From positions 52,514,001-52,578,000 of the forward strand of contig OX597820.1 of assembly GCA_951406725.2 (NCBI GenBank): a DNA stretch of 64,000 bases, in the 5' to 3' direction. A model generated the notes under the pieces. That model was given only the letters and a program-made list of their open reading frames with translations, made no database searches and was not told the DNA's origin. This stretch comes from Octopus vulgaris. Its lineage: Eukaryota. Position numbers and translations under genes: made by a program. Below, piece by piece: positions 23,461 through 51,494 of this stretch. Positions within the stretch are counted from its first letter, which is position 1; every line of letters begins with the position of its first letter.

Positions 23461-23553
23461 TTCTGCTTGAGTAGTCCATGGTGTCCCGAAATAATCAAGT
23501 AAAAGATTTTTCCAGTTGGTGCTATTGAGTTAGTCATGGCCTGGGCCGATAAT
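23461..23553 (+). mobile_element. ~90-bp 3'-end fragment related to the LINE at 29521-34166
   Basis: tctgcttgagtagtccatggtgtcccgaa...ccagttggtgctattgagttagtcatggcctgggccgataat aligns with the LINE's last codons and 3'UTR (tctacttgagtgggccatagtgcccaaa...ccaggtggtgctattaagttagacatggcctgggccaataat). Flanked by (TA)n on both sides. Confidence 0.8.
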
Positions 23554-23622
23554 TATAGATATATATATATATATACAGAGAGAGATTAATACAGATATGT
23601 ATGTATAAATATAGATATATAC

Positions 23623-28996: not shown

Positions 28997-29420
28997 TCGT
29001 AGGCGTGACTGAATGGTAAGAAGCTTGCTTCCTAACCACATATTTCTGGGTTCAATCCCGCTGCAGGGCACCTTGGGCAAATATCTTCGACTATGGCCTC
29101 GGGCCAACCGAAGCCTTGTTAGTAGATTTGGTAGTCAAAACCAAATGAATCCTGTCGTATTCATATATATATATATGTGTATGTGTGTGTGTTTGCCTGT
29201 TATTGTGTTTGTGTGTATGTGTGCATGCGTGTGTATACTTGTGAATCTGTTTGTTCTCCACTACCGTTTGACAATCGCTGTTGGTGTGTTTATGTCCACG
29301 TAAATTAACATTTCCATAGAATAGATCGATAAGTGCCAGGCTTTAAAAAAGGACTCGAGTCGATACATTCGATAGACGATACTTCAAGGCGGTGTCTCAT
29401 AATGGCTGTAAGCTTATAAC
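28997..29420 (+). mobile_element. SINE family A, diverged full copy
   Basis: gtcgtaggcgtgactgaatggtaagaagcttgc..gggttcaatccc..gcaccttgggcaa, then an internal (TA/TG)n tract and a degenerate 3' half. Confidence 0.8.
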
Positions 29421-29603
29421 TGGAGGAGAAAAAAATACATATATATATATACATATGTATATACTTACATCTATATATATATATGTGTGTGTACATATGT
29501 ATATATGTATATGTATATATACTTTGATACTTTGATAGGTTTCGGCCATTATTGGCCCAGGCCATGTCTAACTTAATAGCACCACCTGGTGAAGTCTTTC
29601 AAG

Positions 29604-32600
29604 TCAGAATTTGGGCACTATGGCCCACTCAAGTAGAGAGTTATTGTTTACAGAGACATATCCGGGTGTAGGGGGTTTATCCGGGATTTCTTGAAGGAAT
29701 CTGTCCAAAGACTTCTTGAACCCTATAGGGTCAGTTTCTGTTTTAATGTGTTTTGGTGTAATGTTAAAGAGAGCGGGGCCAATTGAGGTGAAATAATTGT
29801 GCCGTATTGTTGTTATGAGATGAGAGTGCGATTTTTGTTTTGGGCGGATGGCACGGGGCCCAAGCCTTGGATGTACCTTAAAGGTGATGCCAACATCATT
29901 TGGGCAATGCTGATGGAATATTTTCCACATCATGCAGATGATGTAGCGCTCACGACGACGTTGGAGAGAATAGAGTTTTAGCTTTTCTAGTCGACCCCAA
30001 TAGTCGAGGCCTGTCATGCCATCTATCTTTTTTGTGATTGCCCTTTGAGGTGCTTCGACTTTTTTGATACCTTGTATTGTGTGGGGAGACCACAGTGGAC
30101 AACAGTATTCAAGGTGGGGTCGGGCAAAAGTGGAGAAGAGAAGGATAATGGTGTGGATATCTCTCGACTGGAAAGTTCTGAGAATCCAGGAACACATTCT
30201 GCGGGCCATGTCAACTTTGGTGTTTATATGAGTGGCCCAGCTTACGTTGTTGTCCACAATTACTCCCAAGTCTCTGATGTTGTTGGACGCCGCGAGAGTT
30301 TCACCTGAAGGAAGGGAGTATGGGAGTTTCAGGGCATCCTCTTTTCCAAAGTGGATTAGCTCAAATTTATCCTCGTTCAGCAGCATATTGTTTTTTTCTG
30401 CCCATTGGATAACAGCCAGTAGATCTGACTGAAGGCATGTCCGGTCACTCGCCTCATTTATGACCTTCTGTAGCTTGGAGTCATCAGCAAAGATTTTTAT
30501 GTTGCTGTGCTTGATGATGTCATTAATGTCATTAATGTAAATGATGAAAAGAAGTGGGCCCAGCACAGTGCCTTGCGGAACGCCACTACTGACTTTGGCT
30601 GGGCTTGATTTTACCCCTTCAACTACAACCTGTTGAGATCTGTCTGTCAGGAAACACTTAATCCATTTCAGTAACTTTCCAGAGACACCAATGTTGGATA
30701 GTTTTTTCAATAGGATCTTGTGATCGACCCTGTCGAAGGCCTTACTGAAATCAAGGTAGATGACATCGGTGTTGGAGCCCTCTCCCAAAGCTCTCAAAAT
30801 GTCCTCAAAGTGATGCAGGAGCTGCGTTAGGCAGTCCCTTCCATTACGGAACCCATGTTGGTTGGAGATCAGCCGTCTGTTGCTTTCCAGAAATTGGGTT
30901 ATTTGAGATCTCACCACCCTCTCAAATACCTTGATGATATGAGAGGTGAGTGAGATCGGACGGTAATTCACTGCAAGGGACTTGTTTCCCTTTTTGAAAA
31001 CTGGGACAACAGACTGGGACAGAAGGTTTTTTGGAATATAGCCAGCATCCAGTGAGTTTCTCCACAGATTAGCAAGGGGAGATGCAAGTTGGTGTCGACA
31101 CACCTTCAGGACACAAGCAGGGAACCTATCGGGGCCTACTGCTGAATTGTGTTTTATTTCGTTTATCGCCGCTAAGACATCAGGGGCACTAAACGTTATG
31201 TCCGATATAGTGTGTTGGGGGTTGACATCACTGATACAGCCCAGATCGGCCATATCAGGATTGCTGAAAACAGAGCAGTATTGTTTCTGCAGTATCTCGG
31301 CCATGGATTTGGCATTATCTTGGAGAGTGCCAGTTTCGTCAATTAGAGGGCCTACAGTGGAGACAGTGACCCTGCGTTTCCTCGCAAATGAAAAGAACAC
31401 TTTGGGGTTGAGTTTGATTTTTTCAATGGCCCACTTCTCCTCAGCTGATCTTTGGTTATTGATGAGGGACTTCATGCATTGTTGGAGGTTATATTTTTTG
31501 GATTCAAGCAGTGCGATAGCCGTCGAATGTGTGTGTTGCTGTTGGCAGTACTTTAGTTTGTTAATTTTTTTGTTTGTTCTTTTTATTTTTCTGATAATGG
31601 TTTTTCTGTTTTGGGGGATTCTGCACTTTTTGTTCACAGGTCTTGGTGGGGAGTGTTTTGCACATATGTCTGTGACGGTGTCTACAAAGATCTGCCAAGA
31701 TGTTTTATGGTTGGTGGAGATGTGTGTATGTGTAAAGGACCAGTCAACATTTGATAGCTCGTTCCTGATTGCATCCCAGTTGGCTTTATGGAGATCCATG
31801 TTGTCAAATGGGTGGGCTGGAGGAAGGTCACTAGGATTAGCTTTCGGCTGGTGGAATTTCATGTTACAGAGAACCATGTCATGGTCTGAAAGAAGGGTTT
31901 TTTCCACTGTAACGTTATGTATAGTGTTAGTGTGGTTACTAAACACTAGGTCCAAAATGTTCTGATGTCTTGTTGGTGCAAGGACAAGTTGGGACAAGAA
32001 AAACTCATTCGTAAAGTCGAAAAGTGACTCTGCTGCTTCTTTGTCAGCGGTTGAGGCGGGAGTGCTTGGTTTCAAACAGTTTGTAGTCCAGTCAACACAG
32101 GGTAGATTGAAGTCTCCCATCATGAGTATGTTGCTAGAATGGCACTGTTGAATAAAGCACTTAATGCTGTTGAGGCATTCTTTAAAGCACAGTATGGGTG
32201 TTTGGGGCGGCCTATAGAGCCCAATTACTGTCAGATCATTGGCTTTGTTGTGCACGGTGACTGATTCACAGTAGCCGTTGGAGAATATACTATTTCCATC
32301 TGCCGTAAATGAATCATGCAGGAAAATGGCAGTTCCACCCTTCCTCCTGCCGATACGATCCGCGCGGATGGTTGTGAAATTCTTCACTCTCACTTCGGCT
32401 TCCAAGTGGGAGTTGTCAAGGTGGGTCTCAGTGAGAATGAAGAAAGGGATGTGGTGTGAATGGTTACCAACCCAGTCTTCAATGAATTGGACCTTCCATT
32501 TTTGTGCATTGATGGAAGGGCTGACACCTTGTGCATTGAGTAGGAATGTGGAGGTTAGTGTAGTGGCTGGTTTTGACTGTTGCAGAGGGCTTGGATTTTT

Positions 32601-33218
32601 TGTGTGTGTTAGTGGCAGCAATGTGGGGAATTGGTGCACTGGGGTAATAGCATAGGATGGTGTTGAGTGATGGCTAGAATGTTTTTGTAGTATCTCTTTT
32701 GCCATGTTCAACATGGCTAAAGAATTTTCCTGCTTAGGGAGCAGTTTTTGGCTGGAGGTGTGGTTGCACTGTTGGATAGGGTTGTAGTTTCCACTTTTGT
32801 TGTTGTTGTTTTTGTTTTTGTGTCTTCCTGAAAAGACTGGACCAGCATTACTGCAGCATGGTGTGTTTCTATTTTTATTGTTATTCAGGTTTGTGTGTTG
32901 GCTTGAGGCCCCGTTTCTGTTTGTGCGTCGGGTCCCTGGAAGATGAGTGAAGGGACAGTCACTCAGTAGACATGTTCTCTCACGTTGGGAATACCGGCAG
33001 ATTTTGGGACTCCGAGTTGTGTGTGTTTTGAATTTCGATTTACTATTTGGTGGTGTTGATGTTATTGTGGGATGCGTGCTTTGGCCTTGGCCAGTAGTGC
33101 GTCTAGTGCCGGGTAGATGCGTGAAGATGCAGTCACTATTTGTGCAGAGTCTCTGGCGCAGTGAATAGCGGCATATTTGGGGATTTCTTGTTTGTGCCGT
33201 GGGGGCGCATTCTGCTTC
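29604..33218 (-). CDS. LINE pol frame: 2x CCCH zinc finger, APE endonuclease, reverse transcriptase (first ATG at 32714; frame open to 33218)
   Basis: APE motifs: LNAQG, LTETHL, YRPP, MGDFN, PTRH..ILDLVF, SDHD. RT motifs: YRPISLTS, QHGFR, YLDFSKAFDRVDH, SGVPQGTVLGPLLF, FADD. By manual translation the same frame has no stop up to 33218 and includes CRYSLRQRLCTNSDCIFTH (33117-33173) and CRYSQRERTCLLSDCPFTH (32943-32999). Confidence 0.93.
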   Translation of the reverse strand, partial: EAECAPTAQTRNPQICRYSLRQRLCTNSDCIFTHLPGTRRTTGQGQSTHPTITSTPPNSKSKFKTHTTRSPKICRYSQRERTCLLSDCPFTHLPGTRRTNRNGASSQHTNLNNNKNRNTPCCSNAGPVFSGRHKNKNNNNKSGNYNPIQQCNHTSSQKLLPKQENSLAMLNMAKEILQKHSSHHSTPSYAITPVHQFPTLLPLTHTKNPSPLQQSKPATTLTSTFLLNAQGVSPSINAQKWKVQFIEDWVGNHSHHIPFFILTETHLDNSHLEAEVRVKNFTTIRADRIGRRKGGTAIFLHDSFTADGNSIFSNGYCESVTVHNKANDLTVIGLYRPPQTPILCFKECLNSIKCFIQQCHSSNILMMGDFNLPCVDWTTNCLKPSTPASTADKEAAESLFDFTNEFFLSQLVLAPTRHQNILDLVFSNHTNTIHNVTVEKTLLSDHDMVLCNMKFHQPKANPSDLPPAHPFDNMDLHKANWDAIRNELSNVDWSFTHTHISTNHKTSWQIFVDTVTDICAKHSPPRPVNKKCRIPQNRKTIIRKIKRTNKKINKLKYCQQQHTHSTAIALLESKKYNLQQCMKSLINNQRSAEEKWAIEKIKLNPKVFFSFARKRRVTVSTVGPLIDETGTLQDNAKSMAEILQKQYCSVFSNPDMADLGCISDVNPQHTISDITFSAPDVLAAINEIKHNSAVGPDRFPACVLKVCRHQLASPLANLWRNSLDAGYIPKNLLSQSVVPVFKKGNKSLAVNYRPISLTSHIIKVFERVVRSQITQFLESNRRLISNQHGFRNGRDCLTQLLHHFEDILRALGEGSNTDVIYLDFSKAFDRVDHKILLKKLSNIGVSGKLLKWIKCFLTDRSQQVVVEGVKSSPAKVSSGVPQGTVLGPLLFIIYINDINDIIKHSNIKIFADDSKLQKVINEASDRTCLQSDLLAVIQWAEKNNMLLNEDKFELIHFGKEDALKLPYSLPSGETLAASNNIRDLGVIVDNNVSWATHINTKVDMARRMCSWILRTFQSRDIHTIILLFSTFARPHLEYCCPLWSPHTIQGIKKVEAPQRAITKKIDGMTGLDYWGRLEKLKLYSLQRRRERYIICMMWKIFHQHCPNDVGITFKVHPRLGPRAIRPKQKSHSHLITTIRHNYFTSIGPALFNITPKHIKTETDPIGFKKSLDRFLQEIPDKPPTPGYVSVNNNSLLEWAIVPKF

Positions 33219-33841
33219 CTATGTTTCTTTAAGTTTTTGTTACTGCAGTAGTATTGAGGTGGTGATGTGGGGGAAGAGGGCAGTGGTTTCTTATTTGGTT
33301 TTCTGTTGGTATTTTTGGTGATAGAAGACGATGGTGGCAGCGGTGGTGATGATGATGATGATAATTGTGGTGGTTGCTGTGAGAGCGGTGAAAAGATACT
33401 GGCATTTAGTGAATCGTCTAGTAAGCTAGAGTTGAGGAGTGGCTGTTGTTGTTCTTGTTGCTGTGGCTGTTGTTGTTGTTGTTGTGCCTGACCGATGTCA
33501 GGGTCAGCCATTGTGTTGGGAACCAGGAGTGGCTCATTCTGTTGTTGTTGTTGTTGTGGCTGCTGATTTTCTAGCTGTTGTTGTTCTTGAACTGTGAAAA
33601 TATGTAGAAGCTTTTCATAATGGCCTCTTATCAGTTTGAAAGATACTTCGATATGTTTCAACTTGCTACGAATCTGTTTGACGGATCGTGTGTTGACCAC
33701 TTGTGATGTTTTTTCGGCAATCTCATTCAAACACAAGACATTTAGATTTTCTGTCTGGGAAAGAGAGAGCCATGTGTTTATTAAAACATCAATTTCGTTA
33801 TCAGACCAATTTCGTCTGTTGCAGGCCTGCAAGTTAGTCAT
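33062..33841 (-). CDS. LINE N-terminal ORF: Myb/SANT(trihelix)-like domain, polyQ and Ser/Pro-rich linker (last ~45 codons probably out of frame)
   Basis: RRNWSDNEIDVLINTW...NEIAEK....TRSVKQIRSKLKHI fits the Myb/SANT-like pattern R.NW...E...LI..W...IA......R...Q...K. It is followed by polyQ and S/P-rich low-complexity sequence. Confidence 0.72.
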   Translation of the reverse strand: MTNLQACNRRNWSDNEIDVLINTWLSLSQTENLNVLCLNEIAEKTSQVVNTRSVKQIRSKLKHIEVSFKLIRGHYEKLLHIFTVQEQQQLENQQPQQQQQQNEPLLVPNTMADPDIGQAQQQQQQPQQQEQQQPLLNSSLLDDSLNASIFSPLSQQPPQLSSSSSPPLPPSSSITKNTNRKPNKKPLPSSPTSPPQYYCSNKNLKKHRKQNAPPRHKQEIPKYAAIHCARDSAQIVTASSRIYPALDALLAKAKARIPQ

Positions 33842-34134
33842 GTTTGTTTTTCTTTTGTTTGTTTTCCTTTTGATTTTTGAAAATATATATATTCTTTCTT
33901 GGGAGTTAAAGAAGTGTATATATATATAAATGTTCTCTCTTAAGGGTGTGAGTTTTTGATTATTTGGTTGTTTGAGGATATTAAAAGAAAAACAGGTGTA
34001 TATAACAATTTGTAGTTAAATGAAAACGTACTTACGGGTTTGTAGGCAAACACGTGGTTACAAATATATATATATTTAAGGTCAGTTAGTTTTGAAGCTG
34101 TGTAGCTTGCTACTGACTCGGGAGAGAAACAAAT

Positions 34135-34166
34135 AGACGTCCGTCCAGTTCAACAGTTAATCCACT
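34135..34166 (-). promoter_or_regulatory. Putative internal Pol II promoter at the LINE 5' end (Inr-like AGT plus DPE-like GGACGT)
   Basis: The element starts agtggattaactgttgaactggacggacgtct. GGACGT at about +25 to +30 resembles the downstream element of jockey/I-type LINE promoters. Confidence 0.45.
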
Positions 34167-34327
34167 ATATATATATATATAAATATATATACATATATAT
34201 ACACATATATACATATATATATACACATATATACATATATATCTATATAGACCTATATATATATATATACATATATATTTATATATTCATGCATATGCTT
34301 ATATATATACGCATACATATATGTATG

Positions 34328-34359
<32 letters not shown>

Positions 34360-34381
34360 TGTATATATACTTATGTATAGA

Positions 34382-34430
<49 letters not shown>

Positions 34431-50300: not shown

Positions 50301-51494
50301 GACATGCAGGAAGTAAATAGACACCTATACTTTTCAAAATCTTTTATTTAATATGCAAAGTGAACAATTGGAATGTAATTGATAGGTAGGACTACATACT
50401 TTAGTATTCAGTTGACATTCCCTTTGCGGTTTTTAATTCAGAAACTCTTTTTGGCATTGAATTGCTGAACATTGTGATTGTCTCTTGTGGAATGTCTGTC
50501 CACTTTTCACGCAACAATCGAAACAATTCATCTTTAGATTTACGTTTCTGTCGAGTTTTTCGTATAGCTCTATCTAGTATGCTCCGAAAATTTTCAATTG
50601 GGTTCATAACAGGAGATTGGCTCGGCCAAGGAAGCTTTTTGATCCCATTTTCAGTCAGCCATTGTTGATTCCTTTTCGCTGTGTGGCATGAAGCCCCATC
50701 TTCCATGCATAAAAACTCATTTTTCATTATGTTATCGGAAGTAGTCCTTGCTTAAGTATTTCGATGTATTTTTCAGAGTTTATCGTTCCAACACATTCAA
50801 TCAGCTCAGAACGACCAGTACTGGTTACAGCTCCTCAAAACATTATAGAGATACCACCATGTTTCACAGTTGATTGGAGTCGTTTCAAATCAAATTCTGA
50901 CATCTCCTTAACCCATTTCTTTCTTTTCACGATAAGAAATAGTTTAAGGAGAGGTTTTCTTTTAGCTGCTTGTCCATAATACCCAAGCTTGTGCAGATAT
51001 GTAACACACGTTCTTGGATTAACCTCTAGTTGTTTTGCAATGTCAGAAGCCTTCGAACGGGATTCATTTTCCAGAATTCTCTTCAAACAGCCAAGCTTCC
51101 TCTCTGAGGATCCAGGTTGGCTGCGACGAGAATCTGTTGATTCTTTTCCTTGGCCTTTAAATTGTACTATAATTCTATTATTTCTTTGGCCTTTAAATTG
51201 TACTATAATTATATTAACAGTAGCAAGAGGAATTTGAACATTTTCGGCAATTTTTCGCTAAGTTCAACCTCAGATTGCCCAACAATACGACCACTTTGAA
51301 AATCTGACAGTTCTGCTGAATTTTTTGTGCGTGGCATGGGTACTCTTCGCAAATGTCTTACATAATGGCACTTGAAATGAAAAACAAAAAAAACAATAAT
51401 TACTTTGTAAATTCTACACCGCTGAAAACATTAAGACGCTTAGATCAGAAATTTTAGAAATTAAACGTGTCTATTTACTCCCTGCATGTGCATG
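50299..51494 (-). mobile_element. Defective Tc1 (DD34E) transposon, copy 2
   Basis: TIRs catgcaggaagtaaatagacac / gtgtctatttactccctgcatg match at 21/22 positions. The transposase pseudogene (50401-51337) has MEDGASCH, LPWPSQSPVMNPIEN and SMPKRV..GMSTEY*. There is a 36-bp tandem duplication at 51145-51216. Confidence 0.9.

What the first reader, a model, noticed from the sequence alone, without database searches (positions are those of the whole stretch)
32715..33221. Hidden tandem CCCH zinc fingers and a -1 frameshift missed by the ORF track
Seen: the pol frame is open for 168 codons upstream of its first ATG (stop at 33219-33221). It holds two C-X8-C-X4-C-X3-H repeats, each followed by LPGTRRT (TRNPQICRYSLRQRLCTNSDCIFTHLPGTRRT / TRSPKICRYSQRERTCLLSDCPFTHLPGTRRT). 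There is no upstream ATG in this frame, and it is -1 relative to the Myb ORF. To include finger 1 the shift must occur within ~45 nt (33174-33218). Adding one A in cacaaac gives HKTRNPQIC, paralleling HTTRSPKIC and fusing all domains into one ~1,410-aa ORF. I see no canonical X XXY YYZ slippery site there, so a 1-bp deletion (mutation or assembly error) is more likely than programmed frameshifting.
Basis: partly seen in the sequence, partly recalled or inferred. Interest (0 to 1): 0.7.

Follow-up and report, generated by a model that had tools for sequence, protein, structure and literature searches.

The report
Octopus retrotransposon with Myb-plus-CCCH ORF1
An octopus-type CR1 retrotransposon carries an apparently undescribed first protein (a Myb-like domain plus two CCCH zinc fingers), and its frameshift is likely damage to this copy, likely paired with a second slip further on, rather than programmed recoding.

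Summary
Observation confirmed: the pol frame is open 168 codons before its first ATG, holds two C-X8-C-X4-C-X3-H fingers, and is -1 to a Myb/SANT-like ORF. The host is a full-length CR1 LINE (about 34165-29519, minus strand) whose RT differs at 2 of 126 residues from published Octopus sinensis CR1 clusters. The fingers are not a pol extension. They match the last finger of a protein family (helical domain, PHD, three CCCH, helix, P/Q tail, stop) that looks like ORF1p. The first ATG sits inside that family's helix. The closest relative's last 25 residues and its end match the window's Myb frame at 32686-32609 (10/25, 0/2000 shuffles), so a second, compensating slip near 32690 is likely. Best model: two ORFs, with a 410-aa ORF1 (ATG 33841 to TAA 32609) broken by two single-base indels. 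Programmed shifting at the fingers is unsupported: no in-phase slippery site and no RNA structure. The new part is the ORF1 architecture, not the frameshift. No genomic copies could be compared.

The parts
34166..34427 (.). (TA)n microsatellite at the 5' flank of the element
   Evidence: TRF
33842..34165 (-). 5' UTR, 324 nt (5' boundary inferred from the microsatellite edge)
33623..33817 (-). Myb/SANT-like domain in ORF1 (ATG at 33841)
   Evidence: PF13837 E 1.4e-6; Atlas look-alikes 0.80-0.84, leads only
33222..33599 (-). Q/S/P-rich low-complexity linker
33174..33221 (-). Break 1: interval in which one base appears to be missing (-1 step from Myb frame to finger frame); holds C5 and C4 runs
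33096..33173 (-). CCCH finger 1 plus LPGTRRT
   Evidence: (PF14608 E 5e-4, below cutoff)
32922..32999 (-). CCCH finger 2 plus LPGTRRT (174-nt tandem duplicate)
32688..32732 (-). Amphipathic helix shared with the ORF1-like family; contains the 'first ATG' at 32714
   Evidence: alignment; AlphaFold helix 163-181
32695..32723 (-). Predicted RNA hairpin just 5' of break 2
   Evidence: z -3.6; best of 170 windows, z -4.0, nearly tied with one other
32684..32692 (-). Break 2 (inferred): one extra base, beside an A5 run, moving translation from the ORF1 tail into the pol frame
32609..32686 (-). Likely true ORF1 C-terminal tail in the Myb frame, ending at TAA 32611-32609
   Evidence: 10/25 ungapped identity and co-terminal end with P0025; 0/2000 shuffles
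31872..32546 (-). APE endonuclease of ORF2
   Evidence: PF14529 E 4.7e-14, PF03372; motifs present
30261..30989 (-). Reverse transcriptase (CR1 clade)
   Evidence: PF00078 E 7.9e-30; near-identical to O. sinensis CR1 clusters
29519..29603 (-). 3' UTR with predicted stem-loop and short 8-bp terminal repeats, running into (TA)n 29435-29521
   Evidence: z about -3.2

Best explanation
This is a full-length CR1-clade LINE of Octopus type whose ORF1 likely ran uninterrupted for 410 aa (Myb/SANT-like domain, Q/S/P linker, two CCCH fingers, amphipathic helix, P/Q/H tail, TAA 32609) and is likely broken in this copy by two compensating single-base indels. One base is missing in 33174-33221 and one is extra near 32690, by mutation or assembly error. 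Shown: domains, frames, CR1 placement, homology of fingers and helix to a stop-terminated family, and the tail match. Inferred: ORF1p coats the element's RNA through the Nab2-like CCCH pair, oligomerises through the helix, and uses the Myb domain, in place of the relatives' helical-plus-PHD module, to engage DNA or chromatin. ORF2p (APE-RT) is inferred to be made separately at low level by AUG-independent termination-reinitiation or a -1 shift in the ORF1/ORF2 overlap, possibly helped by the hairpin at 32695-32723, and to insert the RNA by target-primed reverse transcription.
For: Of 29 hits to the finger region, 20 share the finger-HLxGT-helix layout. 5 of those 20 are long (430-499 aa) and carry a PHD-like pattern in the same frame as their fingers. 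P0051 joins finger plus helix to an APE fragment (prob 89.6, E 1.9e-6), tying the family to LINEs. 18 of 20 end 41-200 aa after the last finger; the model predicts about 111. P0025's last 25 aa match the Myb frame ungapped with a co-terminal end (score 65, 0/2000 shuffles; the other frames score 7 and 13). In simulation such a match arises in 0.2-0.6% of runs without selection on that frame and 9-12% with it. ATG 33841 and TAA 32609 share a frame (411 codons). Both breaks lie at homopolymer runs. The copy has private RT changes, 2 of 126 aa against three cluster representatives (by eye). 0 of 22 ORF2 homologues carry a CCCH motif. No protein of 662-2107 aa matched the fingers among 39 candidates.
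Against: It needs two indels in a copy whose roughly 980-codon ORF2 is intact. There is no ATG in the pol frame between 32705 and the APE. An HMM of 14 distant relatives scores the pol-frame continuation higher than the Myb-frame tail (51.8 or 49.9 versus 45.1 bits). P0027, a decayed two-finger copy, follows the pol frame across the junction. P0025 is itself frameshifted: its residues 32-43 are a finger read out of frame, still 7/12 identical, so out-of-frame similarity can be high. The simulation's selected model forbids stop loss and favours conservative changes by construction. No homologue with both Myb and CCCH was found. No DNA context was obtained for any relative.
Confidence: 0.55

Rival explanations
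1. Single fused ORF. Only break 1 is a lesion. The active subfamily encodes one 1,412-aa Myb-CCCH-CCCH-helix-APE-RT protein after a recent fixed shift near 32690, and the Myb-frame tail is a vestige.
For: Needs one lesion, not two, and explains the missing ORF2 AUG. P0027 and the distant HMM follow the pol frame. Single-ORF CR1 subgroups with an N-terminal PHD are described (PMC4120745).
Against: The tail and its stop are conserved against P0025. The junction stays open in 20% of shuffles, so its openness says little. No fused homologue was found. There is no 2A motif to separate the products.
Confidence: 0.27
2. Programmed -1 frameshift at 33174-33221 gives abundant Myb-only ORF1p (259 aa) and a rarer Myb-CCCH-APE-RT fusion, gag-pol style.
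For: The frames overlap by about 160 nt in the -1 geometry. A frameshift inside a non-LTR gag gene is reported for HeT-A (PMC5009743).
Against: No in-phase heptamer. No downstream structure: z 0.02 and -0.8, z -0.8 to +0.3 in six windows. In 5 long relatives the N-terminal module and fingers share one frame. The RNA-binding fingers would end up in the rare product.
Confidence: 0.08
3. The Myb ORF is a captured or adjacent piece and not part of the element's ORF1, whose own N-terminus (PHD, fingers 1-2) was lost.
For: No Myb-plus-CCCH homologue and no Myb homologue at all in the word search. No Myb-like motif in the 29 finger hits.
Against: The whole 4.6 kb sits between two (TA)n tracts with no internal simple-repeat break. 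The Myb ATG is in frame with the homologous ORF1 stop. The Q/S/P linker sits where relatives have one.
Confidence: 0.1

Closest known systems
O. sinensis CR1 RT clusters 46, 59, 62, 96, 211 (PMC10294476, Table S7 and Data S2)
   Same: RT nearly identical (2 of 126 aa differ from clusters 46, 59, 96; compared by eye). Classified Jockey superfamily, CR1 clade; 52+37+36+23+5 = 153 RT members.
   Different: Only the RT was compared. The term ORF1 occurs once in that paper's main text and I saw no ORF1 description for these clusters.
CR1/L2 ORF1 types I-V (Metcalfe and Casane 2014, PMC4120745)
   Same: Modular ORF1: a chromatin- or DNA-reader module, an RNA-binding module and a coiled coil. Domain swapping is documented there.
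   Different: Their domains are RRM, CCHC knuckle, PHD, esterase, Tnp22 and zf/lz. The main text has 0 occurrences of CCCH, C3H, Myb or SANT.
Unnamed PHD plus 3xCCCH proteins (P0028, P0044, P0046, P0047, P0053)
   Same: Last finger with HLxGT(R/K)R, low-complexity linkers, helix and P/Q tail (prob 97.5).
   Different: They have a SAP/LEM/Rho-N-like helical domain (Z 4-6 only), a PHD-like finger and three different fingers. The window has Myb and a duplicated third finger.
Nab2/ZC3H14-type CCCH fingers (PF14608)
   Same: Best Pfam match (E 5e-4; 13 of 17 family members match at E up to 0.5). Best PDB sequence hit is Nab2 4lj0 at E 0.067.
   Different: Below the curated cutoff for the window's fingers. 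The fingers are 58 aa apart. Poly(A) binding by Nab2 is recalled and untested here.

Membership tests
CR1 clade non-LTR retrotransposon | APE endonuclease followed by RT in ORF2 | tested here: met
   Pfam; motifs
CR1 clade non-LTR retrotransposon | RT groups with CR1 in a phylogeny | tested here: met
   Indirect: about 98% identical to clusters placed in CR1 by the published tree; Proto2 references look unlike by eye. I built no tree.
CR1 clade non-LTR retrotransposon | Short 3' UTR ending in short tandem repeats (recalled feature) | tested here: met
   85-nt 3' UTR, 8-bp repeats, predicted stem-loop
CR1 clade non-LTR retrotransposon | Target-site duplication | tested here: inconclusive
   Both flanks are (TA)n, so none can be resolved
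Known ORF1 types I-IV (RRM/CCHC, Tnp22, PHD, esterase) | RRM, CCHC, PHD, Tnp22 or esterase domain | tested here: not met
   None in Pfam scans of the two frames at E up to 1. Pfam is less sensitive than the HMM-HMM search used in the paper.
Programmed -1 frameshift cassette | In-phase X XXY YYZ heptamer | tested here: not met
Programmed -1 frameshift cassette | Downstream stimulatory RNA structure | tested here: not met
   pseudoknots were not modelled
Programmed -1 frameshift cassette | Shift fixed across copies | not testable with these tools
   No second full copy in the window; no eukaryotic genome collection
2A-containing single-ORF CR1 elements (PMC3708506) | DxExNPGP motif before the APE | tested here: not met
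   No NPGP in either frame
Nab2-type CCCH (PF14608) | Score above the curated cutoff | tested here: inconclusive
   20.9 bits versus 25.8; fold search of the window model uninformative
Myb/SANT-like (PF13837) | Score above the curated cutoff | tested here: met
   29.1 bits versus 27 on the 80-aa domain; 25.4 in the longer frame

The most novel reading that the evidence does not exclude
The frame offsets are fixed in the active family. This CR1 would then express its polymerase by recoding, through a -1 shift before the fingers or a hairpin-dependent event at the AUG-less ORF1/ORF2 overlap, yielding a Myb-CCCH-APE-RT fusion beside a short ORF1p: gag-pol logic in a LINE, on top of an unclassified Myb/CCCH ORF1.
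Probability: 0.12. Interest if true: 0.8.

Novelty: new variant of a known kind. Interest (0 to 1): 0.42.

Why it matters
LINE ORF1 proteins are classified by a short list of RNA-binding modules. A CCCH-based ORF1, with PHD in a wider family and Myb/SANT here, was not found in the surveys I could search. It would add a type and give a clean case of swapping the reader module while keeping the RNA-binding and helix core. The family appears young and numerous in Octopus (153 RT members in five clusters), so copy alignment can settle the architecture and show how an AUG-less ORF2 is translated. The frameshift itself is probably ordinary decay or assembly error.

Tried and rejected
Word-index homologue searches: finger region in 662-2107 aa proteins, 0 of 39 candidates; Myb region in 174-555 aa proteins, 0 of 26. 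Longer and shorter classes were not searched, so fused forms outside those lengths are unchecked. Atlas: nothing for fingers plus helix, only sub-0.9 Myb leads. Prokaryotic genome scans for contaminant copies: 0 of 98 and 0 of 38 stretches confirmed. Plasmids: no match. Foldseek on a relative's model gave no match at E 0.001. VIA on the window model gave best Z 2.6. PDB sequence search of the Myb domain was uninformative. Rfam: 0. I first took P0025's residues before its finger as locating break 1 (best score 7 versus 0) and rejected this: its finger corresponds to finger 2 and its N-terminus is an out-of-frame finger; no window frame is favoured upstream (33, 31, 29). Internal-duplicate DNA does not place the break. 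Proto2 was considered and dropped. I left 9 of 29 hits out of the family (P0026, 30, 31, 32, 36, 37, 39, 42, 43) as generic CCCH or repeat proteins. The HMM used 14 of the 20 family proteins. Source names and organisms of the relatives could not be obtained. Metagenome and viral collections, Repbase, Dfam, raw reads and eukaryotic genomes were not available, so copy-level frames and prior database annotation of this ORF1 stay unchecked.

Full report
Observation. The open stretch is not chance (6 of 10,000 shuffles). The fingers are a 174-nt tandem duplication. A one-base read-through anywhere in about 33174-33221 gives 1,412 aa.

The element. It spans about 34165-29519 on the minus strand between two (TA)n tracts, with APE and RT domains, intact motifs and an 85-nt 3' UTR ending in 8-bp repeats. 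Its RT is nearly identical to five O. sinensis clusters in the alignment of PMC10294476 (2 of 126 residues differ from clusters 46, 59 and 96, by eye). That paper classifies them as CR1, with 153 RT members in total. So this is an octopus-type CR1 family, and the copy has a few private changes. The window holds no second full copy, only a 3'-end fragment of a relative.

What the fingers are. A full HMMER search with the finger region gave 29 hits. I judged 20 to be one family: fingers, HLxGT(R/K)R, a linker, an amphipathic helix and a P/Q-rich tail. Five long members (430-499 aa) add an N-terminal helical domain and a PHD-like pattern in the same frame. An AlphaFold model of one shows the long helix and confident finger blocks, and its N-terminal domain weakly resembles SAP/LEM/Rho-N folds (Z 4-6). 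The window's fingers match the family's last finger (prob 97.5), and the 'first ATG' lies inside the shared helix. One member runs from the helix into an APE fragment. That these proteins are LINE ORF1p is therefore inferred from that member, the window and the layout; I obtained no DNA context. 18 of 20 end 41-200 aa after the last finger, none of the 29 had an RT or APE Pfam hit, and 0 of 22 ORF2 homologues carry a CCCH motif.

A second break. The closest relative, P0025, follows the pol frame through finger 2 and the helix, then matches the Myb frame from 32686: 10 of 25 identical without gaps, ending exactly at TAA 32611-32609 (0 of 2,000 shuffles; the other frames at chance level). ATG 33841 and this TAA are in one frame, 410 aa apart. 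Simulations conditioned on similar identity gave an open frame, a kept stop and this score in 0.2-0.6% of runs under neutrality or pol-frame selection, and in 9-12% under Myb-frame selection, a model that favours this outcome by construction. Against: an HMM of 14 distant members prefers the pol frame by about 5-7 bits; P0027 follows the pol frame there, though it is heavily frameshifted itself; P0025 also contains an out-of-frame finger that is still 7/12 identical; and ORF2 would have no AUG, only near-cognate codons such as GTG 32639, TTG 32621 and CTG 32618 and 32585.

Programmed shifting. At break 1 there is no in-phase heptamer and no structure. In relatives the fingers are in frame with the N-terminal module. 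A precedent exists in HeT-A (passage in PMC5009743), but I put this at 0.08. The strongest predicted structure of 170 windows is instead a hairpin at 32695-32723, just before break 2 (found post hoc, nearly tied with one other window, 8 of 170 at z -3 or lower). It is a lead for how ORF2 is expressed. AUG-independent ORF2 initiation is considered likely for mammalian L1 in the same passage. No 2A motif is present (passages of PMC3708506, and part 1 of 3 of PMC3894237).

Mechanism. Shown: domains, frames, homologies. Inferred: a 410-aa ORF1p binds the RNA through Nab2-like fingers (PF14608 below cutoff; Nab2 best PDB hit at E 0.067), oligomerises through the helix and contacts DNA or chromatin through the Myb domain, which replaces the relatives' helical-plus-PHD module. 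A scarce ORF2p performs target-primed reverse transcription (established knowledge of LINEs). This copy's ORF1 is probably dead or mis-assembled.

Novelty. Metcalfe and Casane (PMC4120745; I read parts 1-3 of 6, term searches and part 1 of 2 of supplement 1) list no CCCH or Myb ORF1 among 448 elements. Term searches of PMC5203782 and PMC13343379 found 0 CCCH and 0 Myb. PMC9115989 has 0 CR1 and 0 Myb. PMC11203168 gave nothing relevant (passages). Library searches (listings only unless named above) surfaced no paper describing a CCCH- or Myb-bearing CR1 ORF1. Repbase, Dfam and subscription papers were not searchable, and the curated bivalve libraries in the supplements were not read, so prior annotation is possible.

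Verdict. A real feature and a new variant of a known kind. The interest is the ORF1 architecture; the frameshift is most likely a lesion, likely one of two. Interest 0.42.

Noticed in passing
window 32695-32723 (-): Predicted hairpin with 14-nt arms over the helix codons, top-ranked of 170 windows in the element, about 85-110 nt upstream of the inferred ORF1 stop.
   Followed up: partly
window 23462-23560 (+): Short 3'-end fragment of a related CR1 (71% identity over 204 columns including the TA tail) that also runs into (TA)n; both insertions sit at TA tracts.
   Followed up: partly
P0028, P0044, P0046, P0047, P0053: Unnamed family with SAP/LEM-like helical domain, PHD-like finger, three CCCH fingers and a long helix; P0053 adds a weak Tudor-knot/MBT match. 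A likely unclassified LINE ORF1 type.
   Followed up: partly
window 29522-29629 (-): Predicted 3' UTR stem-loop (z about -3.2), a candidate RT recognition signal.
   Followed up: no
window 50835-51257 (-): Weak Tc3-like transposase HTH remnant (PF01498 E 7e-4, below cutoff).
   Followed up: no
window 29000-29440: Two short interspersed repeats 3' of the element, each with 3 further copies in the window at 70-81% identity; probably SINE-like.
   Followed up: no
window 31042-31965 (+): 307-codon antisense open frame over ORF2 with no Pfam match; probably a shadow ORF.
   Followed up: partly
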